Source: Eledone cirrhosa
Lineage: Eukaryota
Length of the DNA: 64,000 nt
Direction of reading: 5' to 3'
Assembly (NCBI GenBank): GCA_964016885.1
Contig: OZ024764.1
Location: 16,120,001 to 16,184,000, forward strand
The number at the start of each line of letters is the position of its first letter. Position 1 is the first letter of the stretch. Below the pieces are notes generated by a model, which worked only from the letters and a program-made list of their open reading frames with translations, did not search any database and was not told the DNA's origin. Shown in pieces: positions 3,172 to 43,691 of the stretch. The position numbers were made by a program, and so were the translations under genes.

Positions 3172-3619
3172 GGTGAAAGAAGTTATATGGTGGACGAGGT
3201 TGAGAGGACTGAGGACAGATGCCTTTCTCTCCGGACAACAATTGATTCCCTTCTTTAAGTATCACTTTAGAAGGAGAATCAGGGTGGAGAGAGAGGCACT
3301 GCACCCCAGTAAATTTACTGAAAGGTGGGTGAATGAAGCGAAAATGGCCCGAGTGATTGGGCCTTCTCTGTTTATAAGCCTGTAGGTTGAGGAAGAGAGC
3401 AAAAGGAAGAAAGGAGCACTTGCACAACACGCTCCTCGAGTTGAGGGTTGTTCTATCGACGGGGTATTAAACAACCCATTTGTGGCGCCTCCCCCCTATT
3501 GAGGATTTCGATTGTTGAAATTGTTTGTTTTTATATTTTTTACACGACTGTATGTAAAATCCCCGGCATGTCTTTGTATTGTCCCCTTTCTTGTTGCGCC
3601 CTTGTGGCTAATAAAGAAA
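3172..3619 (+). mobile_element. 5'-truncated L1/Tx1-like LINE with 19-bp target-site duplication
   Basis: TSD tctatctatatctctctat at 3153-3171 and 3620-3638; KEVIWWTR..FFKYHFRRRIRVERE..FTERW resembles a Tx1 ORF2 C-terminus; AATAAA at 3610. Confidence 0.65.
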
Positions 3620-3684
3620 TCTATCTATATCTCTCTATATATCTTCTATTTCAGCTTGGAAGGAAACGGTACAAAACTACAGAG

Positions 3685-3738
3685 ATGGCGGATGATTTTG
3701 ATGTGGAAGCTATGCTGGAGGCTCCGTATAGGAAAGAA
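3685..3738 (+). CDS. RBM39: RBM39/CAPER-like splicing factor, first coding exon (exon starts at 3655 with 30 nt of 5'UTR)
   Basis: Translates MADDFDVEAMLEAPYRKE, matching the conserved RBM39/RBM23 N-terminus (human RBM39 MADDIDIEAMLEAPYKK). Acceptor tcttctatttcag ends at 3654; donor GAA|gtaagc at 3739; phase 0. Confidence 0.93.
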
Positions 3739-3769
3739 GTAAGCACAATAACAACAATAATTATATCTT

Positions 3770-3910
3770 TGGGACATTGTGGTGTGGTGTAGGAAGGGAT
3801 ATTGTGGTGTGGTGTAGGAAGGGATATTGTGGTGTGGTGTAGGAAGGGATATTGTGGTGTGGTGTGGTGTAGGAAGGGATATTGTGGTGTGGTGTAGGAA
3901 GGGATATTGG
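3770..3910 (+). repeat. 25-bp G-rich minisatellite, ~5 copies
   Basis: Unit attgtggtgtggtgtaggaagggat, just downstream of the first coding exon's donor. Confidence 0.9.
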
Positions 3911-4082
3911 TCCCAATAAATGTGAAATATAGGCACAGCTGTGTGTGAGGGTGTTTTGACTAAAAATGGATCAGTTTACAATAAGAATAGGGACCATTAA
4001 TATTTAAAGGTACCATTGGAGAGACTTGGGGACACCTCACACATAGCCCCTGTCCTTCACTGTCCAGTTGCTATAATAAACC

Positions 4083-4690
4083 AAAGAGGGACCACATAGT
4101 ATGTCTTGGGGACACTTTACACACGGCCCCTCTCCTTTCACTTTCCAAAGAGGGACCACATAGTATGTCTTGGGGACACTTTACACACGGCCCCTCTCCT
4201 TTCACTTTCCAAAGAGGGACCACATAGTATGTCTTGGGGACACTTTACACAAGGCCCCTCTCCTTTCACTTTCCAAAGAGGGACCACATAGTATGTCTTG
4301 GGGACACTTTACACACGGCCCCTCTCCTTTCACTTTCCAAAGAGGGACCACATAGTATGTCTTGGGGACACTTTACACGGCTCCTCTCCTTTCACTTTCC
4401 AAAGAGGGACCACATAGTATGTCTTGGGGACACTTTACACACGGCCCCTCTCCCTTCACTTTCCAAAGAGGGACCACATAGTATGTCTTGGGGACACTTT
4501 ACACACGGCCCCTCTCCCTTCACTTTCCAAAGAGGGACCACATAGTATGTCTTGGGGACACTTTACACAGCTTCTCTCCCTTCACTTTCCAAAGAGGGAC
4601 CACATAGTATGTTTTGGGGACACTTTACACATAGCCCCTTTCCTTTCACTTTCCAAAGGGGGACTACATAGCCCCTCTCCCTTCACTGTC
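4083..4690 (+). repeat. 64-bp minisatellite, ~9 copies
   Basis: Unit aaagagggaccacatagtatgtcttggggacactttacacacggcccctctcctttcactttcc. Confidence 0.93.
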
Positions 4691-6419
4691 CAGTTGCTCT
4701 GAAAAACCAAAGGCAGTGCCTTCTCCATTTTTTTTTTACCAGCCTATAGTTGTCTAAATTGAGACTGGTTACTATGGGGACCTTGGAAAGCTAGATCCTA
4801 TTTGAGGTTTAGAGACAAGGTTTGTCACCACCTTACAGCAAACCCCAACTGGGAGTAGAGGAAGTGTTTGTCACCACTTTACAGCAAACCCCAAACTGGG
4901 AGTAGAGGCAGTGTTTGTCACCACGTTACAGCAAACCCCAACTGGGAGTAGAGGCAGTGGGGGAGTATATTTACTTGGTTGGGTTAGCAATAATTATCTG
5001 GAAAGTTTTTAATAGCAGGAGAAGGGACAGGAATTCTTCTTGTCCTAAAAACAAGTTAAACCTTAACAAAACACAACAGGAGGCCCCTTAGCCACACAGA
5101 AATAAGAACATAGAATGCTTCCCACTCCAGGAACACAGCTGAACCTGGTGATTGCAGCAGGGCAGTGGTTCTTATAGTGAGTTCTGCAGAACCCAAGGAT
5201 TCTGCAAACGAGTCTCTGGGGTCCATGAAAAGGGGTAGAGGAGTATATTTATATTATGACCATATAACAGTATTAGACTTTGGGGTTTCCCCAGAAGTTT
5301 CTGAACCTGAAAGGGATCCAAGTTTGGGAAACCTTGCAGTAAAGATTAACAACTTGCATGAACAGTCAATTTTCAACTTTGATTTTCAAGGAATTGGATG
5401 GATTTAATAACATAACTAACTTGTGTGTTTGGAACATAACTTAACAAAGGTTCTTACATAAAATTATCATGGAATGATTTTTTATAAATGAAAACACTTT
5501 AACCCTTTCATTACCATATTTCTAATGAAAGACACTGTTGGTGTTTTAAACATAACTTAACAAAGGTTGTTACATAAAATTATGATGGAATGTCTTCAGA
5601 TAAATATAAGCACTTTAACCCTTTCATTACCATATTTCTAATGAAAGACACTGTTGGTGTTTGGAACATAACTTAACAAAGGTTGTTACATAAAATTATG
5701 ATGGAATGTCTTCAGATAAATATAAGCACTTTAACCCTTTCATTACCATATTTCTAATGAAAGACACTGTTGGTGTTTGGAACATAACTTAACAAAGGTT
5801 CTTACATAAAATTATGATGGAGTGTTTTTCGACACATGCATGGTCACCTCTCCAACTCATGCCAGTATGAAAAGTGGATGTCGAATGATGACATGTATAT
5901 ATACATTTACTCACATAGATACAAACACAGAGATTTAATAGATAATGCTTTTGTCTGTCATTGAGAAACTCATACTCTACTTGCATATTATATCTTATCT
6001 GATGGTGGGGGTGGTGGTGTATTGGTTTAGTGGTGATGGTGACTTCAGTATTGGGGTTCTGCTCTACTTAATAGTTAATTAGAGCAGGATCGTATTTTAC
6101 TGGTGTGAACTGAGTCAGTTTGTTTCATTGTTTTAACCCTTTAATGTTCAAACCGGCCAGAATTCTCTACCCTTTTCTGTTGAAACTGGCTGTAACTGGT
6201 CACTCAAACTGATAAGGTATTGTTCTCAAAATAAATACTTTCAAAATCTCATAGATTCGATATTATGTAAGATAATTATGTGAGGTAAAGCCTTTACTGA
6301 AAATACAATAGTATATATAGAGTAATGTAAATGTCATGTGAGATAATTATGTAAGATAAAGCCTTTACCATGAAAATATAATAGTATATATAGAGTAATG
6401 TGAATACTAAAGGGTTAAT

Positions 6420-7020
6420 GTCTGCTTTCCCAGCTAGCCACAGTTGTACAGGTCTACACAGACCAAGTCTGTACTGAAGAGGGGCGGCTGACCTCCCAGG
6501 CAGGTCAAGGTGTCTATATCCAGCTTAGATAGTCTTCTTGTGTCCACAACAGTGTCAGTTGCAAAGCTTGGCTAGATGTGGTTCCGCCACAGCTCAACAC
6601 ACTGCTGTCCTTTCTCATTAAACTCTGCCAAGTCCAATACTGTGCAGGGTTGTTCCAGCAGGGAACATATCAGGAGGTGCTGTGTAGTCTGTGGTTCGAT
6701 GCTGCAGTTACATACAATGTCCCCATCCTTTAAATATCCCCGTTTTGCAAGAGTGACTTTTGCATGTCCAACACCAAATCTTAGTCTGTTTAGGCATTTC
6801 CACACTGCATAGTTTGTATCTGCTCCAGGGGGGGCAGTGCCTCGCTAGCCTTTAGCTCCAGGGGGGAAGTGCCTCACTCACCTTTAGCTCCATTGTTGTT
6901 ACAGATGGGAGGTTGTTAAGTTTTTCTTCCCAGCAAGTGACTTTCTCACTACTTATGTTTGATGTTCCAAGGGGCGTGACACTCTTTAGGAAACTTTTCC
7001 CGGATTTACAGTCATGTCAT
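6420..7020 (-). mobile_element. Non-LTR retrotransposon 3' end (Ingi/Vingi-like)
   Basis: WKCLNRLRFGVG..CNCSIEPQTTQHLLICS C-terminal zinc-knuckle motif; same family as 29275-30195. Clade assignment from memory. Confidence 0.7.
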
Positions 7021-8408
7021 TTGTTTGGTAAGCCTTCTATAACTAGTTGCCCTTCCTATCACCAACCACTTTACAGGGTGTACTGGGTGCTTTTATCGTA
7101 TAGATCACCAACACTAGAGAGGTTGTCATTTTTTTGATTTAGCTTAAGAGTTCTCCCAACCCATGTTTGACAAGCTTTTTATGTCTGGTTGCCTTACCTA
7201 TCACCAACCACTTTACAGGGTGTACTCGGTGCTTGTCCTTGCAGTCTCAGTTTAAGTACTGCCAAAGTCAATTTGAATGTCACACCATGGTCTTTAGATG
7301 AGATGACTCACACACACACACACACACACACAAACATTATCACCATTTTATGCAGGTCTTAGAGAAGGTGCGTGGCCTAGTGGTAACAATCATAATGTTG
7401 TTGGTTTGATTCTTGGATTGGGTTGTGTGTTTTGTTCTTGAGAAAAACACTTCATTTCATGTTGTTCCAGTAAACTTAGCTGAAAATGAGTACCAGCAAT
7501 AAGCTGGGGGTTTAACCCTGCAATGGACTGGCATCCTGTCCAGGGGAAAGTCTTGTGCTCTCAGTCACTTCACCCCACGAAACCAGGATAAGTACCAGCA
7601 ATAGCTGGGGGTTTAACTCTGCAATGACTGGCGTCCTGTCCTTCGTTCTTTCTTGTACTGCAAGTGCAAAAAGGAAGACTTATTTCCAAGCCAAGCTTTG
7701 TAGGTCTCCTTCTTTGTTCGGATGGCATCTTTGACCACACATAGAGAGATAAGAAGCCCTAAACTGCTGTCCATGTTTGTCAATAGTGACAAAGGTGTTT
7801 TTAAAGATAACATTGATTCCCCCGTTTGGTGGAGAGGCAATAAAGGGAACCCTATATATTGCTTGTTCCCTTTTTAAACTTGACAGCCTGCTGTAGCTGC
7901 CTGTTTATCTAGTAACACAGCCCCAAGACCAGACAGGACTTTAGTGACAGGGCACAGACAAACAGCCTATCACTGACAGAGCCGAAGCTGCTAAACACTC
8001 CTCATATGTTGAGAATGATGGGAGGGGCCTTCATATATATATGTATCATCATCATCATCATCATCATACGTCTATTTTTCCACGCTTGCATGGGTTGTCA
8101 CGTTTTGTTCATACAGATTTGTATTTTGGTTCGGTTTCTATACTTGGATGCCCTTCCTAACACCAACCACATTAGAGTGTGGACAGGGTGGGTTTTTTTT
8201 TTTTTGTCACCAGCATGACCACATTACTGGGTGGACTGGGTACTTTTTGTCATGTCACCAGCATGACCGATTTACTGGGTGGACTGGGTACTTTTTGTCA
8301 TGTCACCAGCATGACCGATTTACTGGGTGGACTGGGTACTTTTTGTCGTTGCCACCAGCATCACTGATTTACAGGGTGAAGTAGGTACTTTTATTGTGGC
8401 ACCAGATC

Positions 8409-8453
<45 letters not shown>

Positions 8454-8881
8454 CGTGTGTGTGTGCGCGCGCGTGTGTGTATATACAATGTATATACATC
8501 ATGTGTTATAGAAAATATCTTTTTCAAAATTAAGAAAATAAATTTTTCTCTATGATAAATACAACTCATAATTTTGTGATGACCCAGGTTCATTAGTATA
8601 TCCTGGCTTTGTCTCTTTTTATTTTGTTATATCTTAACATGCACTGGAACGAAGAGTATCAACTTTAATGAACCAAAACTGTAGTGATTTCTAGAGGTTG
8701 ACTGGGGAAATGGGACTTTCCGTATTTTTTTTCTGTTTTTTTTTCCCCCGTTGTCTTTGTCCTGTGCGCCCCTTATTTTGAATTTATATATTATATATAT
8801 GTATATATATATATATATATAATGATTACAATAAATACAAAAGTGACTGAAGTTCAAGTAATTTTCAATTCTTTTTTCCAG

Positions 8882-8903
8882 ATGTCCTTATTCAAACACT
8901 GGA
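8882..8903 (+). other. Candidate 22-nt frameshifting micro-exon of RBM39
   Basis: attttcaattcttttttccag|ATGTCCTTATTCAAACACTGGA|gtgagt in non-repetitive sequence; inclusion gives TGA in the next coding exon. Confidence 0.45.
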
Positions 8904-8977
8904 GTGAGTGTAGTTAAGGCCATGAGTGACGTTACTCACACACCCACAGCTCCTTTTACTACCACCAACTTAACCGT

Positions 8978-9008
<31 letters not shown>

Positions 9009-9155
9009 CCCCACTGTGTGTGTGTGTGTGTGTGTTCTTGTTTTGCTTTCTATTTATTCAGATCTCCCCCCCTCCAACTTCTCCCCCACCCAGTCACCAT
9101 TGTCACAATTCACACATTTAAATCTGGTTTGAATTAACTCGGTTAGTACTAGGGT

Positions 9156-9193
<38 letters not shown>

Positions 9194-9513
9194 ATTATAT
9201 AGCAAAGAAAAAAAAAAAAAAAAAAAAGGCAAACAACCCCAAAAGGATAATTGTCGAAAAATTATAGGAAAGGAAAGAGCATTCATGCAGTTTTCTCATT
9301 TATTGAGGGTTGATATATCAACTGTGGCCTGTGTCGTATTATCAACCCTGATATATCAACGTCGCAGTCGGAGCTATAAGGGTTAATGACGATAAAATGG
9401 TACTCTTGAAACATTCCATTAACCTCCTAGCCTCCTGTTCTCTATTTCTGTCTATATATCTCTCTCCCCGCCCCCTCCATTTTAAAGGTTGTTCAGGTGT
9501 TCATTTATTGCAG

Positions 9514-9533
9514 GTGCCGATTAAATCCTAAAG
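9514..9533 (+). other. Candidate poison exon of RBM39 (alternative starts at 9488 and 9497)
   Basis: Perfect donor AAG|gtaagt at 9534; pyrimidine tract 9421-9483; three tandem AGs. The 20-nt form reads VPIKS-TAA; the 37- and 46-nt forms frameshift. Confidence 0.55.
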
Positions 9534-9754
9534 GTAAGTATGTCACTAATAGCCACTCTGATATATGTTCCTACTACTACTACTACTACTATCCAGGTTA
9601 TACCTCTGCTGTCAATAAGGATGGGGCTATCTGTAGCCAACGATAATGAAGTATAGCCCCCAGCTGTGCTTATTAGGGTCATATGATTCATTACAACTCT
9701 CTCCTGTTGTTTTCTTCTCTCAGTTTATGTTCAGGGGTCAACTTCCACGAAGGT

Positions 9755-10426
9755 CAACTTTCCCCTTTTCGTTGTTCCAGGGTCAGTAAAATGACCAGTT
9801 GAAAAGTGGGGTTATTTTAGTCAATTTTTCCCCTTTTCGTTGTTCCAGGGTCAGTAAAATGACCAGTTGAAAAGTGGGGTTATTTTAGTGAACTTTCCCC
9901 CTTTTCGTTGTTCCAGGGTCAGTAAAATGACCAGTCGAGAAGTGGGGTTATTTTAGTGAACTTTCCCCCTTTTCGTTGTTCCAGGGTCAGTAAAATGACC
10001 AGTCGAGAAGTGGGGTTATTTTAGTGAACTTTCCCCCTTTTCGTTGTTCCAGGGTCAGTAAAATGACCAGTCGAGAAGTGGGGTTATTTTAGTGAACTTT
10101 CCCCCTTTTCGTTGTTCCAGGGTCAGTAAAATGACCAGTCGAGAAGTGGGGTTATTTTAGTGAACTTTCCCCCTTTTCGTTGTTCCAGGGTCAGTAAAAT
10201 GACCAGTCGAGAAGTGGGGTTATTTTAGTGAACTTTCCCCCTTTTCGTTGTTCCAGGGTCAGTAAAATGACCAGTCGAGAAGTGGGGTTATTTTAGTGAA
10301 CTTTCCCCCTTTTCGTTGTTCCAGGGTCAGTAAAATGACCAGTCGAGAAGTGGGGTTATTTTAGTGAACTTTCCCCCTTTTCGTTGTTCCAGGGTCAGTA
10401 AAATGACCAGTCGAGAAGTGGGGTTG
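9755..10426 (+). repeat. 68-bp minisatellite, ~10 copies, SINE-1 derived
   Basis: Unit aactttcccccttttcgttgttccagggtcagtaaaatgaccagtcgagaagtggggttattttagtg. Confidence 0.93.
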
Positions 10427-10952
10427 TCAACATTCTCTTCCCCTAAATGGTTGATGTTGATTCATTACTTAAATGGTGTCATTGATTTGTGTGAAAAATG
10501 TGTTGAACTACAAACTAAAATGGGTGAATTTATGGGGTTTTAAAAAGAAATTATTAGTGTTTTTTTTGTTTGTTGTTGTTTGGCAAATGGTTTGATCTGA
10601 GGCCCATGTTTTGAAACTGAAGCAGTGAGATGGTGGAAGGGACTAGCTCATGAAAGAGGGCTTTAGTTCACTCCCAGAAGAACTGACTTTGACTGCAACG
10701 ATACATTCAACCCATGACAGCATTGAAAACTGACTTACAACAATGTTTTAACCATTCGAAATGTTCATGGCTCTCTTTGCAACCTGGTCACACATACAAT
10801 TCCACTGTACCTCTGAAAATATCGGCAGATACCAGAAAATGGATATAAGCTTTTAGGTTGTTATTTTTGTTGAGTTATCACAGTCCATGACAAGATGGGG
10901 TGGATATCAAAATCTTTTAAAAGATGTTCATATGCATACATATATAAGTATG

Positions 10953-10996
<44 letters not shown>

Positions 10997-11205
10997 AAAG
11001 ATAACATGGAGAATTGGTTACTCCTTCATTACATTTATTGGTTGGTGACACGTGTTTCACCACTGATCAGCTCAAGGTTTGATCTGTATCGATCTTACCC
11101 GACTCTGTAATCTGCGGCTTGACGGACCCCTTGAAATGCTGAAGTGAACCTCAACATCGAGTGCTCACCCGGGTGAACCTACAGTAACTCCAAGTTACAC
11201 TCCCT

Positions 11206-11247
<42 letters not shown>

Positions 11248-12332
11248 GTGTATATATAGAGTATTACTGTCTTAATACTCCTCTAGTGTTGTTATTACTT
11301 AACCCTTTAGCATTTAAACTGGCTGTATTTGGTCAGAATTCTCTCACCTCTTTCTGTTCAAACTGGCTGTAACTGGCCATTCATACTGATGTTAAGGTAT
11401 TGTTCTTAAAATAAATACTATCAACAAAATTTCATAGATTCGATATTATATATGGTAAAGCCTTTACTGTGACAATACAATAGTATATATAGAGTAATGT
11501 AGATGTTATGCGAGATATTATGTGAGGTAAAGCCTTTACTGTGAAAATACAATAGTATATATAGAGTAATGTAAATGTTATGTGAGATATTATGTGAGGT
11601 AAAGCCTTTACTGTGAAAATACAATAGTATATATAGAGTAATGTGAGATATGTGAGGTAAAGCCCTTACTGTGACAATACAATAGTATATATAGAGTAAT
11701 GTAAATGTTATGTGAGATATTATGTGAGGTAAAGCCTTTACTGTGAAAATACAATAGTATATATAGAGTAATGTAAATGCTATGTGAGATATTATGTGAG
11801 GTAAAGCCTTTACTGTGACAATACAATAGTATATATAGAGTAATGTAAATGCTAATGGGTTAAGTCAACTTAAGGCTTCAGCTTTTTTATCTGGTAGGGT
11901 AAAGATATATTTTCTAGATTAGCTTCAACATACAAATTCATGTTGTATCATCTTAGTGTTCATTGCAATTACTTCTCTGGTCTCTCTGTTACCTGGGACT
12001 ATCTACTGTCACCCCCTCCCTAATTTACTGTAAATCTCTGGTCACCTGTGACTATATTCTGTCATCCCAATTTAAGCAGTCACCTTTGCTCTATATTTGT
12101 AGCGGTGTCATCAGCATCTTGTTAATTCTGTTGATAAAGATGTTTTTTTGTTTTTTTTCATGAGAATTTTTCCATTGATTAGCCTAGTATCACTGACAGC
12201 GAGTAAGACAAGGCAATGAGTAGGTGAGGATGGTGGAAATAGAACCAGTGAGGAATGAGATGGTTGGGTCATGTGTGGAGAAATTCTTCAGTGAAATAAT
12301 GACTTTACTGATAGAAGTCTTAACCCTTAACC

Positions 12333-14050
12333 CTTTACATTACTCTATATATACTATTGTATTTTCACAGTAATGGCTTTACCTCACATAACATTTACAT
12401 TATTCTATATATACTATTGTATTTTCACAGTAAAGGCTTTACCTCACATAACATTTACATTACTCTATATATACTATTGTATTTTCACAGTAAAGGCTTT
12501 ACCTCACATAATATTTCACATAACATTTACATTACTCTATATATACTATTGTATTGTCACAGTAAAGACTTTACCTCACATAATATCTCACATAACATTT
12601 ACATTACTCTATATATACTATTGTATTGTCACAGTAAAGACTTTACCTCACATAATATCTCACATAACATTTACATTAGTCTATATATACTATTGTATTG
12701 TCACAGTAAAGGCTTTACCTCACATAATACCTCACATAACATTTACAATACTCTATATATACTATTGTATTTTCACAGTGCTGGATTTACCTCACATAAC
12801 ATTTACATTACTCTATATATACTATTGTATTGTCACAGTAAAGACTTTACCTCACATAATATCTCACATAACATTTACATTACTCTATATATACTATTGT
12901 ATTTTCACAGTAAAGGCTTTACCTCACATAACATTTACATTACTCTATATATACTATTGTATTGTCACAGTAAAGGCTTTACCTCACATAATATCTCACA
13001 TAACATTTACATTACTCTATATATACTATTGTATTGTCACAGTAAAGACTTTACCTCACATAATATCTCACATAACATTTACATTACTCTATATATACTA
13101 TTGTATTTTCACAGTAAAGGCTTTACCTCACATAATATCTCACATAACATTTACATTACTCTATATATACTATTGTATTGTCACAGTAAAGGCTTTACCT
13201 CACATAATATCTCACATAACATTTACATTACTCTATATATACTATTGTATTGTCACAGTAAAGGCTTTACCTCACATAACATTTACAATACTCTATATAT
13301 ACTATTGTATTGTCACAGTAAAGGCTTTACCTCACATAACATTTACATTACTCTATATATACTATTGTATTCTCACAGTAAAGGCTTTACCTCACATAAC
13401 ATTTACATTACTCTATATATACTATTGTATTCTCACAGTAAAGGCTTTACCTCACATAACATTTACATTACTCTATATATACTATTGTATTCTCACAGTA
13501 AAGGCTTTACCTCACATAACATTTACAATACTCTATATATACTATTGTATTGTCACAGTAAAGGCTTTACCTCACATAACATTTACAATACTCTATATAT
13601 ACTATTGTATTGTCACAGTAAAGGCTTTACCTCACATAACATTTACAATACTCTATATATACTATTGTATTTTCACAGTAAAGGCTTTACCTCACATAAC
13701 ATTTACATTACTCTATATATACTATTGTATTCTCACAGTAAAGGCTTTACCTCACATAACATTTACATTACTCTATATATACTATTGTATTCTCACAGTA
13801 AAGGCTTTACCTCACATAACATTTACAATACTCTATATATACTATTGTATTGTCACAGTAAAGGCTTTACCTCACATAACATTTACAATACTCTATATAT
13901 ACTATTGTATTGTCACAGTAAAGGCTTTACCTCACATAACATTTACAATACTCTATATATACTATTGTATTTTCACAGTAAAGGCTTTACCTCACATAAC
14001 ATTTACATTACTCTATATATACTATTGTATTGTCACAGTGCTGGATTTAC
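12333..14050 (+). repeat. 60/72-bp minisatellite, ~27 copies, from the piggyBac-like MITE interior
   Basis: Unit atttacattactctatatatactattgtattttcacagtaaaggctttacctcacataac with or without a 12-bp insert; same unit at 21540-21960 and inverted at 11450-11850. Confidence 0.95.
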
Positions 14051-14634
14051 CATTGGGCTTAGGTGTGTTTAAGGACATGGCCCTGTTGGCCAGGGGAGCC
14101 ATTTACCTGCCAACATTTTTTTTCCCTCCTTCAGGGCCCAAGTAAGAGGTCTCATAACTTAACTAACACAGGGCCTCATTTGTCCTAAATCCCGCAGTGC
14201 TTAACATCTGTATGAGTGGCCAGTTACAGCCGGTTTGTACAGGAGGAGGTGAGAGAATTCTGGCCGAATGTGGTCGGTTTAAAGGCTAAAGGGTTAATGA
14301 AAGTAGCCCATTTGATTGATCTGTGCAGGAAACTGACTCTACCAAACGTTGACTGGGTTCCTGATGTAATGTAGAAGAGTAATGTAGGAACTGAGGGTGC
14401 AACTTGATGATATCCATCATTCCCATACCAGTAATTGGTGCAGGTTGGTTGTTGTCTGACTGAGTGGACCGGGATGGGGTTTTAAGGGGCATGTTTGAAC
14501 TTAATCTATGGCTGATGTAATACAGTTTTGTAGGTAGGGTTGATTTTAGTATGGTAAATAGTGCTTGTTTTGGCCTGTGGAGAACACAGCTGTGTTTTAG
14601 ATTTGCTTATGTTCTAGTTGAGGCAGGTATAACC

Positions 14635-14673
<39 letters not shown>

Positions 14674-14811
14674 AGAGTTAAACAAGGTTCAATGAATACA
14701 TCAAAGAATGAGTTTTACAATAGATTGGAAGCACTCAACAGCAAAATGTTTTCCAGAGTTATTAATATTAATTCAAAATATTAACAAAATAGATATTCTT
14801 GTGATCAATTA

Positions 14812-14878
14812 TATTTTATTATACATATTTCAGAGGTACTGAGTTAAGTTCAACAGTACGTCCTCATCAGATAAAATA
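14812..14878 (-). ncRNA. Hammerhead motif, family A (left arm of palindrome)
   Basis: Reverse complement of the 14980-15046 motif. Confidence 0.65.
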
Positions 14879-14979
14879 AAATGATACATGACATACCCTG
14901 ACATGGTAGATGGTTAAGATTCTACTACCTTGATTGAATCTTAACCATCTACCATGTCAGGTTATGTCATGTATCATTT

Positions 14980-15046
14980 TATTTTATCTGATGAGGACGT
15001 ACTGTTGAACTTAACTCAGTACCTCTGAAATATGTATAATAAAATA
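14980..15046 (+). ncRNA. Hammerhead motif, family A (right arm of palindrome)
   Basis: TATTTTAT-CTGATGA-GGAC GTACTG..CAGTAC CTCT-GAA-ATATGTAT-A-ATAAAATA: 8-bp stem I, near-palindromic stem III. Confidence 0.65.
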
Positions 15047-15586
15047 TAATTGATCACAAGAATATCTATTTTGTTAATATTTTGAATTAATATTATATAT
15101 GTATGTAAAAGGTAAACAGCAAAAACAACACAATCGGTACAGTATATGGAAGGTATATATTAGATTAACGCTTGATATAGCAGGAAGATATATATCACCT
15201 ATTTGGGATAAACTACTGACATGCAGTGCTTTGGATGGCTCGGACCTGCTTATCATCAGGAGGTTATTATGTAACAACTAAGATAAACAACAGTCTTGTG
15301 CAACTATATATATATATTTATTAAAATAACAGATTAAAGTTTAAGCAAAGAATCGCTTAAGGGTGAAAGCAGTGATTTCTTTGCTTAAACTTTAATCTGT
15401 TATTTTAATAAATATTTGCTCTAGGCTTCTTATATATTTGATATATATTTATCCTTATCAAGCCCTCTTTGGATTTTAGTCTTCACATTTATTATTATTA
15501 CTATTATATATACATATATGTGTATGTGTAAAAAAGTACCCTGGTATGTTATATTTTTGTGCACAATGTCGTGTTTAAGGTATCTA

Positions 15587-15660
15587 TATCTTATGTAATT
15601 CTGACGAGTCCTAATATTGAGCTTTTAATATTAAGGATGAAACACTTGTAAATTAAGATA
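15587..15660 (+). ncRNA. Minimal type I hammerhead ribozyme motif
   Basis: Stem I TAATT/AATTA (extended TATCT/AGATA); core CTGACGA 15601-15607; stem II GTCC-TAATATTGA/TTAATATTA-A-GGAT; GAAAC 15639-15643; predicted cleavage after GTA at 15650. Confidence 0.75.
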
Positions 15661-15910
15661 TGATATAGTTAGCAGTGTATGGCTTATTTTTCAATGTATC
15701 TCTCTCTCTATATATATATATATATAGTTGCACAAGAGTGTTGTTTATCTTAGTTGTTACATAGTAACTTCCTGATGATAAGCAGGTCCTAGCCACCCAA
15801 AGCACTGCATGTCAGTAGATTATCCCGAGTAGGTGATAACGAGTGATGAAGTATTCATTTAGCAGATAATGGTAGTTAAGATGGGATTAAATGACCATAA
15901 TTTTTTTATT

Positions 15911-15961
15911 GCATTATATATATTTCTGGTACATGGTTATTCATGTGACTTCATCAGATGC
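15911..15961 (-). ncRNA. Hammerhead motif, family A-like
   Basis: Minus strand GCAT-CTGATGA-AGTCACATG AATAAC CATGTACCA-GAA-ATATATAT-A-ATGC; first stem II pair is mismatched. Confidence 0.5.
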
Positions 15962-17259
15962 TTAAGCATTGGTGCAGTTATGCAATCATTGTGATATGCC
16001 GGTGGCCATGCACATCCATCCAGTAGTGAAGTGGTTCATATATATATATATAATCTCTCTCTGCCACATAGTTTGTTCAACCTAGAAGTTCTTGCCAGTT
16101 TAGTATACTATTAACATCCGTCCTGTTTCTCCTTATAAGGCAATCTCTTTGTTTTATTTCTTTCACATCATATAAATCTAAATATAGTCTCTTCCACACA
16201 GTTTGTCCCATTTCTCCTTATAAGGCAATCTCTTTGTTTGTTTTTTTTACATGATGTTCCCTCCATGGCCTTCTCTCTCCCCACAACTTTAAGTGTCGTA
16301 AATTTAAATGTCATGTTCATCTACGTTTGATCAATATCACCATAAATATTAATTATTGAGAAGACATAATTACTATATAACCAGATGGATTAATATATTT
16401 AATTTTTCTAATTGACTTCCAAGTTAAATATTAAAGTCTTTCAAACAAATCGTTAAGAAATATTTCAAGAGATATTCTACTGTCTGGAAATGGTCTTATT
16501 TCTTCTAATTATTTACTTCCTCCCTCTTATAATAACCATTTTTTTTCCTCCGCATTCCTATTATTGATAAAGATTTACATTTCTTTTCGTAGAATAAATT
16601 GAAGGAAACCTGATTTCTGAAGTGACAGACCAAGGGAAATTCCAAATTGGTTTGATTAATTTGTCGACTCAGTGTTCAGTAAATATTTTTAAAAAAAAAA
16701 AATCCTTGCTGTCCGGCCAAAATTCATTGTGGGACTGAAACGTTACCCTACGTGTAATTTCATCTTCATCATGTTGACATTATTTCAGTGCGGAGGTCAG
16801 ACTGAGGACTCCAATTGCAGAATTTTAAACCAAGATTCAAAATGATAAATTATAATGTTGAAAGCAAACATAGTTTAGAGGAGAAAAGAAAGGAAAAAAA
16901 AAGACTATGACACCCAATCAAAATGCTGGCTCCTTGATATGTATATTTAGATAATGTATAGAATGATGCTATAAAATAGGGTGAAAACCCTTAAAAGACA
17001 GAAAAGAAGTTGCCATTGTCTACTATGAGAAACTTCCTCATAGTTAACAATGGCAACTTTTTCAGTCTTTTAGGGTTTCCACCCTAATTTATAGCATCAC
17101 CGCACATGTGCACATCATACCCTATATTAACTCTATCTTCTCAGCCCCTTGTAAGAGCCTGAGGGATCAGCCAGGTATACACAATGTATATTTAGATATA
17201 TTTTATACTTTGTAATTATTCAGTTGTGGGTTCAATCCCAGGTGTGTGACATCTTGGGT

Positions 17260-17296
<37 letters not shown>

Positions 17297-17704
17297 CAGC
17301 TCACACCTATGCAGGTTTAGCTGGCCTCCTCCAAGGTATATCTCGTTGGAGGTATCTTGGGTAATTTAATGATAGGGACCCCACTCCCTATCATCTCATT
17401 TCTACAGCTGACTAAACTGGAGCAACGTGAAATAAAGTGTCTTGCTCAAGGAAACAACACATCACCTGGTCCGAGAATTGAACTCACAACCTTTTGATTG
17501 CAAGCCCAATGCTCTAACCACTAAGCCATATACCTTCATTGTGAGCACAACAATATCATAATTGTTAGACAACACACCTCCATATTAACCAGTTGTGATA
17601 TGATGTAGTTAACTTTGTCATCTACACCAGGTGTCACACACCTGACAGCTAGCTCATCTAATGATTGAAAAACACTTTCTTTATGTGTGTGTGTGTAATA
17701 GACA

Positions 17705-17735
<31 letters not shown>

Positions 17736-19615
17736 TTATTTATTTATTAAAATAACGGATTAAAGTTTAAGCAAAGAATCACTGCTTAACGAAGGGTGAA
17801 AGCAGCGATTCTTTGCTTAAACTTTAATCTGTTATTTTAATAAATATTTGTTCTATGGTTCTTATATATTTGATATATATTTATCTTTATCGAGCCCTCT
17901 TTGGATTTTAGTCTTCACATTTATTATTATTACTATATATGTATATAGTTCAGCTGACCATTTATTGGCAGTTTTGTGTGTGTGTATGTGGAGCGAGAGT
18001 CTCCTAGTCTTCATTAAGACATCTCTCTAGAAGGTCACTCTGATAAAACCTGTGACATCCAATGATGTAGACCAGTTCTTCTTTTTGGGTAAATGCTTTC
18101 AATGTTCAGAAAGTGGGATTGGCCCCATGCAAAGCCTTTCCTCACTTAAAAAAGCTTTAAACACAGGCATTGCTTGATGTGTGACACTTTTCTGTGATGC
18201 ATGGCATTGCTGGCCATGGGCAAGTCCCTAGCAGGACTAAACTGCCATGTCGGTGATGTTCATGCTTAAGTATCAAGTGATGGCATTACACGAAATAGAT
18301 TTGCAGCCATTGTCTATCATCATCATCATCATCACCGTTTTACGTCTGTTCTTCCATGCACACAGATACATATATGTATGTCTATGCATGCATGTATATA
18401 TATATATATATACACACACACATATACATACACACTCAAACTTATGTATATATATACATATAGTGAAGATGCATGGCTTAGTGGTGGTAAGTTCAACTGT
18501 GAACTTGCGCTGTGTTTCCTTGAGCAAGACATTTTATTTGATGTTGCTCCAGTTAACTCGGCAGTTGAAATGAGTTGTGACATCACTGGTGCCAAATTTA
18601 GAATGAAAATATCTTAAAGTCAATCTAGCAAAGCAAGAAGAAAGGAATAGAGAGCCCTGGCCCCTTCAGTGAAATAGCCTTGCTCGGTACACTGGGAGTG
18701 GGTAGCAATTCCATCCTATGTCCCAAATGCAGACTATGGGTAGGTTTTATATGTGATTGATGTACTGGAGCTGTAAGTATCAAGGGCTCACAGAAGACCA
18801 GCTCTATGAAATGCTCTGAGGGCTCAGTAGTAGTAGTAGTTGTTAGCTTGTGTCACCTGGGCGACCAAATTAGCCGTGAAGGTGGGTTTTCCGAGAGTGA
18901 GAACAGGATGGAGAAAGTTTGGGGAGCTACTACTACTACTACTACTACTACTGCTTCTGCTGCTGCTGCTGCTAGCTCCGAAAGGTTTTTTTTTTTCCTC
19001 AAAATGAAGGGTAGATTGTATGATGCTTGTGTATGACTAGCCATGCTACGTAGTAGTTAAACGAGGGCTTTGTGAGTTCCCAGTGGAGGTGTGGCGTTTG
19101 ATGACATGGGCACAGAGAGCTGCATAAAAAGATAGAGGGCGCTTGAAAATCTTGGGATGATGTAGTAAAAGCTGAGCTCGCAAGAGATGTTACTGCATCA
19201 AGTCCTTTGGTGATGTGGCTGTACTGCAGAAGACCCCCCTTCTCTTCCCTTCCCCCCACACACACATGATTATATATATATTTATATATATATAAATAAA
19301 ATGTGTGTATATATACAAGCATACACACACATACATGGTGTATGTATGTATATATATATATATATATATGCACTGTGCATCTGCATGTGTGTTTACTTGT
19401 TCGTTATTTAAGTTGGTGCTGTTTGTTTATGCCCTGCATAGATTGAGTTAATGTAGAGCATGTCTTGGAGCCAGCATATTATACATACATATATGGACAT
19501 ACCACACATACATATGTGTACAGCATATAGACATTCGTACACCCACCAGCGTATATGAACACTGTTGCAGCTGATTGCAATTTTTATAATACTGATTATG
19601 GAACATTCCCCTCTC

Positions 19616-19665
<50 letters not shown>

Positions 19666-19766
19666 TCCTGCTGTGACCTGCTAGAACTCCGACAATGGAC
19701 ACTTGCTCCAGATATAACCAGAATTCAAAGGATATTCTTTTCAGCCCTGCATATATATATACATAT

Positions 19767-19799
<33 letters not shown>

Positions 19800-19800
<1 letters not shown>

Positions 19801-20110
19801 AGTGTACCCCCGGCATTTGCAGTCCCGGTTATTCACGGAATTTTCCTTAGAACCTAACTAATAAATATTCGTGGAAACCACCTCATATTTGTGGAATCGT
19901 AAATATCTTCAGTGAATTTTTTTATGGCAATGTATATGTTTTTTAACACTAAATTATTAATAACAATATACCGTATTTGCCGGCCCCTATTTTACGTTGT
20001 GGTTTGACGTTTGTAGGCATTTTTATGGACCATGTCCTCCATTCACGGCTTTTCACTCTTCGTGGGTGCTCTGGTTACATAACCTCCGCGAATACCGGGG
20101 GACAACTGTA
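19800..20110. mobile_element. Tc1/pogo-like MITE (other copies about 39497-40780, interrupted, and 55598-55883)
   Basis: Imperfect TIRs CAGTGTACCCCCGG / CCGGGGGACAACTG-TA; internal sequence shared by three copies. Confidence 0.65.
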
Positions 20111-20111
20111 T

Positions 20112-20166
<55 letters not shown>

Positions 20167-20378
20167 GGAGAAAGTATGACCCCGACGACAGAGCTCAAGC
20201 CGTTTCGACGGCTATTTCTGGACTAAAAAAAGTATTGAGTACTCTGGTGCGTTATGGTCCATCTGGTTCCTTACCACAGCTCCTTCATTATATATATATA
20301 CACACATACACACACTCTCCCTCGCTCTCACACACACACAGACACACTCCATCTCTCTCACACACATTTATACACACT

Positions 20379-20413
<35 letters not shown>

Positions 20414-20557
20414 GTGTGTGTGTGTGTGTATCTAGCATCTGTGTTTTTTAAAGAACTAACTGCTCCTCTCCAACTTTCATCTTTTCCACTTCAAAACTGA
20501 AACAAAGAATATTTTACTATTTCGTTTTTTTTTTCTGTTTTGTTTCTGTTTTTTTAG

Positions 20558-20601
20558 GACGACGTACTCAAGTCTGATGGAAGAGTTGAGAAAGAGAGAA
20601 G
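20558..20601 (+). CDS. RBM39: RBM39 second coding exon (44 nt, phase 0 to 2)
   Basis: Long U-rich tract ending ttttag at 20557; DDVLKSDGRVEKER+AG; donor AAG|gtaggt. In frame with the previous exon. Confidence 0.85.
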
Positions 20602-20695
20602 GTAGGTTCAATTTTCTTTCCCCCCCTCTATCTCTTTTAATATTGATCAGTATTGATTTTGTTTTTGTTTTAATTGGTCTTCATTGATATGTTTG

Positions 20696-20920
20696 TTAAC
20701 CCTTTAGCATTTACATTACTCTATATATACTGTTGTATTTTTGTGGTGAAGGCTTTACCTCACATATCTCACATAATATCGAAGCTATGTGATTTTGATA
20801 TTATATATTTTGAGAACAATGCATTAACATAAGTAGGAGTGGCCGGTTAGAGCCGGTTTGACCAAAAAGAGGTGAGGAAATTCTGGCCGGATACAGCCGG
20901 TTTAAATGCTAAAGGGTTAA
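20696..20920. mobile_element. piggyBac-like MITE (reference copy; others at 6133-6418, 11299-11863, 21533-22400, 23307-23472, 23469-23686, 23725-23917, 32126-32337)
   Basis: TTAA-CCCTTTAGCATTTA...TAAATGCTAAAGGG-TTAA: TIRs beginning CCC with TTAA target duplication; non-coding. Confidence 0.8.
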
Positions 20921-23900
20921 ACATTTGAACATGATTGGGTGGTATGGTGTGGTGTGGAAATTTGTTAAATAAATATATCTAGGCACAGACATAGCTGGGT
21001 GGGGATTGGTCGAGTTGTGATGATGGGGCAATATAACTGAAGTCAATAGAAACAATGATGGTCTCGTGCACAGAAATACTATAAACTAGGGTGAAGACCC
21101 TTAATGATGGAAAAAGGGGTTGCCATTGACTGCGATGAGGAATTGAATCCCTAATCAGTATCTGGGAGATATGGGATTCAATTGGTTCAATTCTTCATAG
21201 TGGCTGATGGCAACTCCTTTTTCCATCTTTTAAGGGACCTTACACTATTTTTGAGATCTGCTATGTATCCTGATAATTATTTTGTCTCTCTTGGAAAACT
21301 GTTTCCATGTGAAAAGAAAGGTTTAATTTCTTGTCTGCTTCACAATGATCAATACATTTATTGTATAATATTGATTAATATTGAACAATATTGAATACTT
21401 ACAGCTTTTCTTCTACTTTAATTCGGTTATTCACTTTATCTTATTAAGGTGCGTCTGGCAACGTCAGGCTCTTTTGCTAGTTCCAAATATAATAGAGAAG
21501 TTAGGTATCTTTAAATCGAATTTGAGATTTATTTAACCCTTTAGCATTTACATTACTCTATTATCACCTTAAAGGCTTTACCTCACCTAATTATCTAACA
21601 TAATATCTCACATAACATTTACATTACTCTATATATACTATTGTATTTTCACAGTAAAGGCTTTACCTCACATAATACCTCACATAACATTTACATTACT
21701 CTATATATACTATTGTATTATCACAGTAAAGGCTTTACCTCACATAATATCTCACATAACATTTACATTACTCTATATATACTATAGTATTTTCACAGTA
21801 AAGGCTTTACCTCACATAATATCTCACATAACATTTACATTACTCTATATATACTATTGTATTATCACAGTAAAGGCTTTACCTCATATAATATCTCACA
21901 TAACATTTACATTACTCTATATATACTATTGTATTTTTGTGGTAAAGGCTTTACCTCACATAAATATCTCATATAATATCGAATCTACGAGATTTTGATA
22001 TTATTCATTTTTGTGGTAAAGGCTTTACCTCACATAAATATCTCACATAATATTGAATCTACGAGATTTTGATATTATTCATTTTTGTGGTAAAGGCTTT
22101 ACCTCACAAATATCTCACATAATATTGAATCTACGAGATTTTGATATTATTCATTTTTGTGGTAAAGGCTTTACCTCACATAAATATCTCACATAATATT
22201 GAATCTACGAGATTTTGATATTCTTTTTTGTGGTAAAGGCTTTACCTCACATAAATATCTCACATAATATCGAATCTACGAGATTTTGATATTATATATT
22301 TTGAGAACACCACCTTAACATAAGTATGAGCAGCCAGTCTGAACAGAAAGAGGTGAGAGAATTCTGGCTGGATACGGCCGGTTTAAATGGCTAAGGGTTC
22401 AATAAAACGGACAGAACTTTTGTTACAAACTGATATATATGTATATGTGTGTGTGTGTGTGTGTATATGTATATATATATGTGTGTGTGTGTGTGTATAT
22501 ATATATGTGTGTGTATGTGTATATATATATAATATATATATCTGTATATATATATATATATGTGTGTGTATATATGTATATATATGATGGGTATTTAAAC
22601 GGTTTGTGGAATGTATCTTTTATAGGAACACTATGCAAATATTTTCCCATTTCTTTGTAGCAACCTAAACATGTACCTACATGTTCTAACCTGCATGATT
22701 TGGAAGTAATTTGAAGCAATAAATTGAATTTTATGTAATTTTAATAGCTACCATCCTGAGCCCTTTAGTTACCAACCCAGCCAAAATCGGCTTCTATTTT
22801 AAATTAAAATCTTCCAACACAATTTTATATAAGAACCTTACATTAAGTTACTCTCTTAGTAATGAAATAATAATTTTAGTAAATACCTCAAAATTCTTTA
22901 CTAATTAATTAAAAGAGTTTATTTCATTGAAAGAGATAAACAAGGTGTGTTCTCTCAAAACTGAAACAAGAACCTATTTACCAATTTATGGTAAAACTTT
23001 GTTGGAAGAAATAAAGTTAGTTATTGAATAAAGTAATATAGTTAATAGAAAGCATTGTGTGATATGTAATAATTGATAGGTTTTGAAAAGCCTATACCAT
23101 GTAGTAGAAATATATAAAGGGTGAAGAATGACAAATAAAACAAAGTAATGTTTTACTCAGTATATTTCAACATAATATTTCAGGGCTACAACCTTCTTTT
23201 CAAATGTAAAACGGAAAGTTCAAAACAAAAACAAACAAAATTTTGAGAAATGTTTATGGAGATACTGCCCTTAAAAAATTAGCAATTTACGAATGAATAA
23301 GTTGTTTTAACCCTTTTGTATTTACATTACTCTATATATACTATTTTATGTTCACGGTTAGAATGTCTTAGGAGAGAATCGCTGGACAGTTGATATTATC
23401 TATTTTTAGGATAATACTTTATTGTAGGTATAATTGGCCGGATACAGCTGGTTTAGATGTTAAAAGGGTTAACCCTTTAGCATTTATATTACTCTATATT
23501 TACTATTGTATTTTCATGGTAAAGGCTTTACCCCACATAATTATCTCACATAATATTGAATCTATGAGATTTTGATGTTATTTATTTTGAGAACATTACC
23601 GTGACATCGGTATGAGTGGCTGGTTACAGCCAGTTTAAACAGAAAGAGGTGAGAGAATTCTTCTGGTTTAAATGCTAAAGGGTTAAAGAAGGACGAGAAG
23701 GAACGCTGATGATGATGATGGTTACTTCATATTTACTATTGTATTTTCACAGTAAAGGCTTTATCTCACATGATATCAAATATATGAGATTTTGATAATG
23801 ATTATTTTGAGAACAATACCTTAACATCATTATGAGTGGTTAGTTACAACCGGTTTGAACAGAAAGGGGTGAGAGAATTTCGGCTGGATATGGCTGGTTT

Positions 23901-40680: not shown

Positions 40681-41292
40681 ATCATGGAAGATATTTACGA
40701 TTCAGTGAATATGCAGTGGTTTCCATGAACGATTATTAGATAGGTTCTAAGGAACATTCTGCGGATTCTAGGGGTACACTCTACACCCTTTATCTACCAA
40801 CTTTCATCAGAGTGATGATGTGTATTATTGTATCAGGATTGCTGGAAATTACGCACAGACACACAGACAGACACACACAGGCAGACACACATATATATCA
40901 TCATCATCATCATCATATATATATATATATATATGATGTCCCACTCTTGCAAGTAGAGAAAAGTGGACGTGAAATGATGATGATGATGATATGCATTCTC
41001 ATACACTACAGTTTCATTTTCAGGCTTTTTTTTGTGTGTGTCTTGGTAAGTATTGGGGTTGTTTGAAATGTTTATAATTGAAAATGCCTCCCTCCCCCCC
41101 ATTAATAATAATAATAATAATAATAATAAGAGGGGTTTCCTAAACTAAAGTACTTGTCCTTCAGATAATCCCCCCCCCCCCCAAATATATATATATATAT
41201 TCCAAGCAATCAATCTGGGTTTATCTCCCGACCGACACATCCATTGGTATTTTTCAAGGGCGGTGCCCCCAAATGGCTGGAACAGGTAAAAG

Positions 41293-41361
<69 letters not shown>

Positions 41362-42255
41362 ATATATACATTTTTATTTTTTTTTTCCTTTAGTGTATTA
41401 CTGGTACTGGCTGACATTGGCACTCGTTAAGCTCATTAATTACACATTTAAAGTTAATATCTTTCCTCTCATCATCCTAATATGTTTCTTGTAAAATGAT
41501 TTTTCAAATTTTCTGTTCGTTTGCAGGCAAGCTCTTTTTCGGAAATTTTTCTATAATCTTCGCCCCGTTTATAATTTTAATCTGATTTTGTTTTGTCTCA
41601 CAGGCTCTCCTTTAGGAATTCTCTTGTCATTTTGGAAATATTAAACTATATTTAAATATATTTGAATATATTTAAAATATTTTTATCGATATGTTTGAAG
41701 TTGTTCTCTTGTAGATTGACCCCCTGTAGTGGTTCCTTGATGGGAAAAACAGTTTGGCTTGAAAACAGATAGACTGACAGACAAATAGACTGACAGACAG
41801 ACAGATAGACTGACAGTTAGATAGACTGACTGACAGGAACATACAGATAGACAAGCTGACAGGGATAGACAGAGAGAGCCCTCCAAAATAAATAAGAATT
41901 GGTTTCGTTTCGTTTCAGTGAGTCCTTTCCTTTCCTTTTGCTAGGTTCTTCAAAAGGCCTGTCATACACACACACACACACACACACACAATACATATAT
42001 TGTTGTTGTTGTCATATTGTCTCTTCCTTCTTCTCCTCCTCCTCCTCTTCATTGCCAACTTGTGTCAGTCACATGGTTGTTTTTCCTGGCTTTTAATTCT
42101 TTTGCAGGGGTCACTTGGAAGGACTGGTTTTGTTTGTCACATGTCATATAAATGTTGTCTTTGTAGGGCTTCCCAGGGTCTGAGCAGGAGGCTTTAATAT
42201 GGAAAATAAACACTCGTTATGTACATCGAACCGAAAAAAGATTTTAATTATAAAG

Positions 42256-42295
<40 letters not shown>

Positions 42296-42435
42296 TAAAA
42301 AATAAAAAGGAAAAAAAAAACCCAACGAATTAACAAAATAAATATATAATTACATAATCTTTTCTCGCAATTTTTGGGGTTTCCTTCTAATGCTTCTGTT
42401 ATATATTGGACTTATAGGTGTCAATTTTGGTTCAG

Positions 42436-42490
42436 ATATTGGAGAGCGATGTGAAAGTTTTCTCATGCTAGCTGAGAACAAAGAGACCAG
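42436..42490 (+). other. Candidate 55-nt poison exon of RBM39
   Basis: ttttggttcag|ATATTGG...GACCAG|gtatgt; in phase 2 reads R-Y-W-R-A-M-TGA (42452-42454). Confidence 0.6.
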
Positions 42491-42659
42491 GTATGTGGGT
42501 TGAAGGAAACAACGGGGGTTGGTGGGGGCGGTTGTGACAGTTTGGCAACGGGGGAGGGTGGCTGCTGGGAAATGGGAGACGGGGTTGGATTGGAAGTTCG
42601 GGACTGCCCCTCACTCATTTGGTATTTTTCAAGGTTTTTTTTTTTTTGTATTCAAAAAA

Positions 42660-42699
<40 letters not shown>

Positions 42700-43691
42700 G
42701 CAGTAATAATAAAATATGAAGACTAGATTTCCATAATGCCTTTTACTATGTTTTAGCCCTAATACGTATTTCTGTGGTGCCATTGTTACATCATGATGCT
42801 ATAACACAATTACTGACATGACATCTTCAGACAGCCTCTTAGGTAATATGTGTAATCATATAATTTATTTCTAAATCACTGCAACCTTTTCATGTGGGGA
42901 GACAGATATACTTTCGATATACTCCATTCTCCCACTTCCATCCGCACCACCCTTTCTCTGTAAAGTTATGTTGGTACCACATAACATCCAGCCCAGACAG
43001 AAGTGGTCGTGTAGGTGTCGCGACAAAAAGCACTGTCTACACTATAAAGTGGTCGTGTAGAAGACATGGTAAAAAGCACCAGGCCCACACTGTAAATATG
43101 GTTGGCGCTAGGAAGGGCATCCAGTTGTGGAAAACCAGCCAGAAGTAGTCCTATACAAGTGAGACACGGTCACTCGACCAAACTTACCTCAAGTGGGACA
43201 AACCTGTCTAACCCATGCTAGCGTGGAAGATAGACATTAAACAGCGATGATGATGATGTTGCTACTTCAAGGGTCTGTTTACCATGTGAAGACAGAGCTT
43301 TGAAATAACAACATGGAATGCATAACAAGTGTATTACTTACGAGGCTGTCTGAAGACATTGTGCCTGTAACTGTGTCATAGCATCATGGCACTACAGAAA
43401 TGCGTATTATGGCTAATTATGTAATAAAAGGAATTATGGAAATCTAGCCATTGTATTTTATTGTTACTGTATGTGTACTCTGTCCTGTACTACCCATGTG
43501 ATACCACTCAGAATTGGAAGGATACATAAGACGTTGAATGCTTTTTCCTTATTACATCAGGATTTACTAATGTGAGTGATATAAAACACAGCCCCAGCAA
43601 GCAATTAGTAAATATTCTATAACACAAATAAATATATATATATATATATACGATATTAAATAAATGGAAACTATATTTATAAAACCATATT

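What the first reader, a model, noticed from the sequence alone, without database searches (positions are those of the whole stretch)
8860..9545. Candidate poison exons in the intron after the start-codon exon
Seen: a repeat-poor island with a 22-nt exon (8882-8903) and a perfect AAG|gtaagt donor (9534) served by three tandem acceptors. Each single inclusion gives a stop or frameshift, and the 22+20 nt combination reads into TAA. Established: human RBM39 autoregulates through a poison exon (exon 2b) in the intron following the MADD..YKK exon. Inference: a positionally conserved or convergent AS-NMD switch in a mollusc.
Basis: partly seen in the sequence, partly recalled or inferred. Interest (0 to 1): 0.75.

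Follow-up and report, generated by a model that had tools for sequence, protein, structure and literature searches.

The report
Candidate poison exon in octopus RBM39
A long intron of an octopus-like animal's RBM39 splicing-factor gene holds strong splice signals around a tiny stretch that would cut the protein short if spliced in, likely the self-limiting switch already known for this gene in humans and flies, though no RNA data show it being used.

Summary
Candidate B (9488/9497/9514-9533) looks like a real exon. Its donor ranks 1 of 1115 GT sites in the intron, and a branch-point motif (9422) and a 55-nt AG-free pyrimidine tract precede it. It is the best-scoring non-repeat, non-coding exon candidate in the gene. 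Candidate A (8882-8903) and the 'repeat-poor island' are at chance level. No RNA run covered the site and no other cephalopod intron was available, so use is unproven. In metagenome loci from termites and other animals the same intron holds conserved, stop-bearing exon-like cassettes, often with tandem acceptors, with no sequence likeness to the octopus one. One group has them one intron later. The human control element (RRM2 motif at the acceptor) is absent here; the branch point is instead predicted to lie in a stem (11 of 400 controls). This scan earlier noted a used stop-creating acceptor in an oomycete RBM39 first intron (unchecked here). Verdict: likely new member of a known kind, about 0.6 that B is a real poison exon.

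The parts
3655..3738 (+). Start-codon exon of RBM39 (ATG 3685, 18 codons, phase-0 donor at 3739)
   Evidence: same phase-0 boundary in other animals' loci
8882..8903 (+). Candidate exon A, 22 nt, frameshifting; acceptor rank 13 of 902, donor rank 42 of 1115; chance level
9152..9239 (+). T32 run facing an A-rich run, predicted long U-A hairpin between A and B; role unknown
9370..9435 (+). Predicted stem: 9380-9388 pairs with 9417-9425 and covers the branch-point motif and the AG at 9429-9430
   Evidence: opening cost 7.4 kcal/mol, 11 of 400 controls; whole-fold z -1.5 to -1.8
9419..9423 (+). Only yUnAy branch-point motif within 100 nt upstream of the first two B acceptors (branch A 9422, -65 from AG 9487)
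   Evidence: consensus recalled
9431..9485 (+). 55-nt AG-free tract, 82% pyrimidine
9488..9533 (+). Candidate poison exon B; 46, 37 or 20 nt from acceptors ending 9487, 9496, 9513
9534..9539 (+). Full-consensus donor of B, strongest in the intron; predicted paired, but its partner changes with the folding window
20558..20601 (+). Next coding exon (44 nt); holds the stop for the A, B46 and B37 frames

Best explanation
The stretch ending at the donor 9534 is likely a poison cassette exon of RBM39: spliced between the start-codon exon and exon 20558 it would stop the protein after 23-39 codons and likely send the mRNA to nonsense-mediated decay, and RBM39 itself likely promotes its inclusion as negative feedback. 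Shown: the gene, the splice signals, the stops, and stops 84-113 nt upstream of a later junction with more junctions behind. Inferred: splicing uses the distal branch point 9422, skips the too-close AG 9430, scans the pyrimidine tract and picks among three AGs, all of which give a stop, so acceptor choice does not matter. Inferred and weaker: the limiting step is the branch point, predicted to be hidden in a stem, which RBM39 would help U2 snRNP engage (human RRM1 binds stem loops; RRM3 and the RS domain bind U2). Exon A is probably incidental (about 0.3 real).
For: Donor rank 1 of 1115. B is the top non-repeat, non-coding candidate on the sense strand of 88 kb, behind only rows of four coding exons. 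37 comparable pyrimidine zones in 369 kb of unmasked control DNA, 0 of 37 followed by a strong donor; 2 of the 7 such zones in this gene are proven coding acceptors. Same intron in other animals: L014/16/19/21 cassette block 97 of 100 columns invariant against 266 of 529 elsewhere, five AGs and one donor, all five forms with a stop; termite loci (95-100% to named termite RBM39) have invariant runs of 306, 130 and 89 columns and two exon-like blocks of 51 and 57 nt with in-frame stops; L035 has six AGs before one donor, all six with stop or frameshift. RRM2 stretches carrying the human RNA contacts are nearly identical to PDB 7Q33/6PAI. Unproductive splicing of this gene is reported in human, mouse, fly and worm without sequence conservation (PMC8652244, PMC10332324, PMC3176834; passages).
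Against: No RNA evidence of inclusion. No cephalopod or other mollusc intron could be compared. No sequence similarity between the island and any of 43 loci. The RRM2 motif N(G/U)NUUUG directly before the AG, essential in human, is absent at all five island acceptors though present at cassette acceptors in L014/L021 and L027. By summed score B-like pairs are expected 0.24 times in this intron, and another candidate (21235-21448) scores 20.7 against 20.9. The stem's fold z-scores are not significant and branch points of the other animals' cassettes are mostly not hidden (0.4-5.6 kcal/mol). In the L041 group the conserved cassettes lie one intron later. A full-consensus donor is unlike the weaker donors of most of the other cassettes. 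Stops near the start codon can escape decay (recalled).
Confidence: 0.5

Rival explanations
1. Both stretches are chance pseudo-exons in a 16.8-kb intron and are not spliced at any meaningful rate.
For: 268 acceptor-donor pairs pass loose thresholds in this intron and the top scorer (14135-14248) is a repeat. A-like pairs and long unmasked runs are common in controls. About 0.1 full-consensus donors are expected per intron of this length (5 in 800 kb). No similarity to other animals' cassettes.
Against: Donor, tract and branch motif coincide in the right order and spacing; 0 of 37 control tracts had a strong donor; this intron carries poison-like cassettes in several other animals.
Confidence: 0.25
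2. B is a real poison exon but is set by something other than RBM39, such as tissue-specific factors, general U2 activity, temperature or RNA editing acting on the branch-point stem.
For: RRM2 motif absent at the acceptors; branch motif predicted paired, opening cost 7.4 kcal/mol at 37 C and 10.3 at 12 C; hidden branch sites control the SF3B3 poison exon and respond to several U2 factors (PMC11162794, sections 19-20 and passages).
Against: Stem not significant by z-score and not a shared feature of other cassettes; autoregulation is the shown mode in human, and fly Caper binds its own RNA (PMC10477243, PMC10332324).
Confidence: 0.14
3. The working switch lies elsewhere, for example in the acceptor-rich unique stretch 41024-42700 of the next intron, or B's donor closes an alternative first exon.
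For: L041-group loci carry their conserved cassettes in the next intron. 41024-42700 holds a 22-nt candidate, several pyrimidine-rich AGs and an AG at 42166 preceded by the RRM2 motif. Annotated mollusc isoforms start anew at either junction.
Against: The motif-before-AG pattern occurs 0.34 times per kb by chance; no candidate there scores as high as B; many annotated alternative N-termini end in residues that may be acceptor read-through.
Confidence: 0.11

Closest known systems
Human RBM39 poison exon 2b autoregulation (PMC10477243; abstract, passages, section 12 and supplement hits read; one scanned supplement not searchable)
   Same: Same gene, cassette early in the coding region that would create a premature stop; RRM2 largely conserved; donor predicted to be base-paired, as in the human inhibitory stem loop.
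Drosophila caper poison exons and metazoan RBM39 AS-NMD (PMC10332324, PMC8652244, PMC3176834; passages read)
   Same: Several poison exons per gene, mechanism kept without sequence conservation.
   Different: No mollusc case found in print; positions of the fly exons were not checked here.
SF3B3 poison exon with concealed branch site (PMC11162794; abstract, sections 19-20, passages, supplement hits; supplement file was cut when stored)
   Same: Predicted stem covering the branch point upstream of a stop-creating exon in a U2-linked splicing factor.
   Different: SF3B3 stem is 14-17 bp with a short loop, conserved and probed by SHAPE; here 9+7 bp around a 28-nt loop, one species, prediction only.

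Membership tests
RBM39/CAPER proteins | RS region, two RRMs, RBM39 linker (PF15519), C-terminal UHM | tested here: met
   one PF15519 match in the genome
Poison exon (AS-NMD) | Canonical splice signals flanking a cassette | tested here: met
   B; A has AG/GT but only chance-level strength
Poison exon (AS-NMD) | Inclusion gives a stop more than 50-55 nt upstream of a later junction | tested here: met
   7 of 7 isoforms, 84-113 nt before the junction after exon 56259-56318
Poison exon (AS-NMD) | Exon is included in RNA | tested here: inconclusive
   No run on record as RNA holds the stretch
Poison exon (AS-NMD) | Isoform is stabilised when NMD is blocked | not testable with these tools
   Needs experiment
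Poison exon (AS-NMD) | Sequence conserved in related species | tested here: inconclusive
   No cephalopod intron found; distant animals show no similarity; allele test had no power
Human-type RBM39 exon 2b switch | N(G/U)NUUUG directly upstream of the cassette's AG | tested here: not met
   0 of 5 island acceptors
Human-type RBM39 exon 2b switch | Stem loop sequestering the cassette's donor | tested here: inconclusive
   Donor paired in models but z -0.56 and partner varies
Human-type RBM39 exon 2b switch | Inclusion depends on RBM39 level | not testable with these tools
   Needs minigene or knock-down
Concealed-branch-site poison exon (SF3B3 type) | Branch point paired in a stable stem | tested here: inconclusive
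   11 of 400 controls as costly to open; z -1.5 to -1.8
Concealed-branch-site poison exon (SF3B3 type) | Stem conserved across species | tested here: not met
   Distant animals' cassettes show no comparable concealment; close relatives not available

The most novel reading that the evidence does not exclude
RBM39's first coding intron has carried an unproductive-splicing switch across animals, rebuilt again and again from unrelated sequence as several tandem acceptors feeding one donor; the octopus version has dropped the human RRM2 site and instead gates a distal branch point with an RNA stem that RBM39 senses, which could make the set point depend on temperature or RNA editing.
Probability: 0.15. 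Interest if true: 0.68.

Novelty: new member of a known kind. Interest (0 to 1): 0.42.

Why it matters
RBM39 feedback through a poison exon is established in human cells and is a proposed drug route. A mollusc case would fill a gap in a pattern already reported for mammals, fly and worm, which is expected rather than surprising. The more useful points are the comparative ones: position and tandem-acceptor layout recur while sequence does not, and the octopus candidate lacks the element that makes the human exon RBM39-dependent. That allows a direct minigene test of whether one protein can autoregulate through a different cis code.

Tried and rejected
RNA: no RNA holder listed; the two RNA-guess runs covered only low-complexity or repeat pieces at 8596-8627 and 8708-8766; this is no evidence either way. 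Allele test: island core showed 0 differences in two DNA runs of one sample (3 just downstream at 9589-9642), but background was only 1 difference in about 1.6 kb and 4 in about 2.3 kb of listed pieces, so no power. Truncated products: 19 short proteins with the start-exon peptide and 9 representatives were intron read-throughs, none a cassette junction; a search with the N-terminal 60 residues of a close homologue gave no cephalopod isoforms among the 120 listed of 237. A 25-nt, 84% match of exon A to L044 (E 0.53) lies beyond the next coding exon of that locus, in what reads like a LINE remnant (label recalled): rejected as chance. Pseudo-exon 14135-14248, the top scorer, is a high-copy repeat: rejected. 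Rfam: 49 matches in 3500-21000, none in the island. A two-state switch between helices at 9306-9394 was considered; the alternative fold did not dominate the models. Alternative N-termini in annotated isoforms cannot separate cassettes from retained introns. Of the 43 loci, L055 and L056 are not RBM39; L024, L038, L046 and L054 read on in frame with no cassette; L039, L040 and L053 had no partner for comparison; for L015/22/33 a conserved exon-like block (70, 92, 84 nt) was seen but the next coding exon was not located. Literature: 6 searches; none listed a mollusc or cephalopod RBM39 poison exon (one search returned 0 papers).

Full report
Gene. The window is G000:C25:16120001-16184000. PF15519 matches once in the genome, 24 kb beyond the window. 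Database proteins map exon by exon on the + strand from 3685 to about window-coordinate 91574, 91-100% identical to an Octopus bimaculoides RBM39 model over the RRM exons, lower in the low-complexity linker. The first coding exons are 3655-3738, 20558-20601, 56259-56318 and 70546-70602, which read in one frame. So the finding lies in the 16.8-kb intron after the start-codon exon, as stated. That the animal is an octopod is inferred from this identity.

Observation. All coordinates are right. A, the three B forms and the three A+B forms stop after 23-39 codons, 84-113 nt before the junction behind exon 56259-56318, with further junctions downstream. With a generic matrix (frequencies recalled), B's donor ranks 1 of 1115 GT sites, its acceptors 32, 108 and 56 of 902; A's acceptor ranks 13 and its donor 42. 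In 40 control stretches (800 kb counting both strands) there were 5 donors as strong with an AG in range, 2 B-like pairs and 17 A-like pairs; by summed score 0.24 B-level and 0.75 A-level non-repeat pairs are expected in this intron. The island is single-copy but not unusually long: 30 of 40 controls hold an unmasked run of 950 nt or more (the mask is insensitive, being built from 544 kb).

Upstream of B lies one branch-point motif (A 9422), an AG 7 nt behind it, then 55 AG-free nucleotides at 82% pyrimidine ending at AG 9487. This is the distal branch point layout (established knowledge, recalled). 37 such tracts occurred in 369 kb of unmasked control DNA and none had a strong donor behind it. 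B is the best non-repeat, non-coding candidate on the sense strand of the gene, closely followed by 21235-21448; the best antisense score was 20.0 against B's 20.9. The branch motif is predicted paired with 9380-9388 in every window that includes that arm; opening it costs 7.4 kcal/mol, reached by 11 of 400 control motifs drawn from 2171, yet the fold as a whole has z -1.5 to -1.8. B's donor is also predicted paired, with a partner that changes.

Other animals. A scan of metagenome contigs gave 43 loci from 99 pattern hits; most are genomic, with the intron at the same phase-0 site. Five termite loci have invariant intron runs of 306, 130 and 89 columns where 7% of columns vary, and exon-like blocks of 51 and 57 nt with in-frame stops; these loci are 98% alike overall, so the contrast is modest outside the longest run. 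Four loci of an unplaced animal group (two of them nearly identical) share a block with 97 of 100 invariant columns against 266 of 529, five AGs and one donor, each form with a stop. L035 shows six AGs before one donor, without an independent partner for conservation. Four loci of another group share a cassette with a branch motif and three AGs, and a second block, but in the next intron; L047 lacks the first block. None resembles the octopus island in sequence. None of these cassettes was seen in RNA.

Mechanism. [quoted passage not shown] The octopus RRM2 is nearly identical at both ends and more diverged in the middle exon, but the RRM2 motif is absent before all five island AGs, while present in the L014/L021 and one termite cassette; it occurs by chance 0.34 times per kb. 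So B may work like the human switch but fails the test for its defining cis element. Hidden branch sites control the SF3B3 poison exon, whose inclusion falls on Caper RNAi in fly cells (PMC11162794); the octopus stem suggests that route, but the other cassettes do not share it. That paper's table lists one human RBM39 acceptor with a concealed branch site, which I did not tie to exon 2b.

What is missing. No run on record as RNA held the stretch, no cephalopod intron was reachable, and allele data had no power. Searches for truncated products found only intron read-throughs.

Known context and verdict. Two vertebrate poison exons (PMC3176834), fly caper poison exons (PMC10332324) and AS-NMD of the gene in human, mouse, fly and worm without sequence conservation (PMC8652244) are in print; passages only were read. 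PMC13247117 was searched and named the gene only in its references. Six searches found no mollusc report. I put B as a real poison exon at about 0.6-0.65, as part of RBM39 feedback at 0.5, and A as real at about 0.3. It would be a new member of a known kind; interest 0.42.

Noticed in passing
window 41024-42700: Second long unique stretch, in the next intron: a 22-nt frameshifting candidate (41024-41045), several pyrimidine-rich AGs, an AG at 42166 preceded by the RRM2 motif, a donor at about 42491 and an A27 run; resembles the first island in style.
   Followed up: partly
window 21235-21448: 214-nt non-repeat exon candidate with stops, scoring almost as high as B, 630 nt after exon 20558-20601.
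   Followed up: partly
window 14135-14248 and 613-823: Top-scoring pseudo-exon lies in a high-copy repeat with a 98% identical inverted copy at 613-823; the pair could form long double-stranded RNA if both are in the transcript.
   Followed up: partly
window 9756-10425: Ten 68-nt tandem units directly downstream of B, each with a very strong acceptor-like site; possible decoys.
   Followed up: no
window 8978-9008 and 9571-9591: (CTA)n runs follow both candidate donors; 4 such runs on the sense strand of the 144-kb region, none antisense, 37 in 800 kb of controls.
   Followed up: partly
window 9306-9360: Two copies of a 12-nt word that forms short palindromes, plus a 10-bp inverted repeat, upstream of the branch-point stem.
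   Followed up: partly
L027:4852-6198 (also L029-L032): Termite RBM39 intron with several invariant exon-like blocks, one invariant over 306 columns, two with in-frame stops.
   Followed up: partly
L014:1768-1836 (also L016, L019, L021): Highly conserved stop-bearing cassette with five tandem AGs and a human-type RRM2 motif before one of them; a good target for its own follow-up.
   Followed up: partly
L041:4168-4246 and 5360-5411 (also L037, L042, L045, L047): Two conserved non-coding exon-like blocks in the intron after the second coding exon, one with a consensus branch point and three AGs.
   Followed up: partly
window 17467-17534: tRNA-like Rfam match on the minus strand just over the gathering score, in a very high-copy repeat; probably a SINE head.
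   Followed up: no
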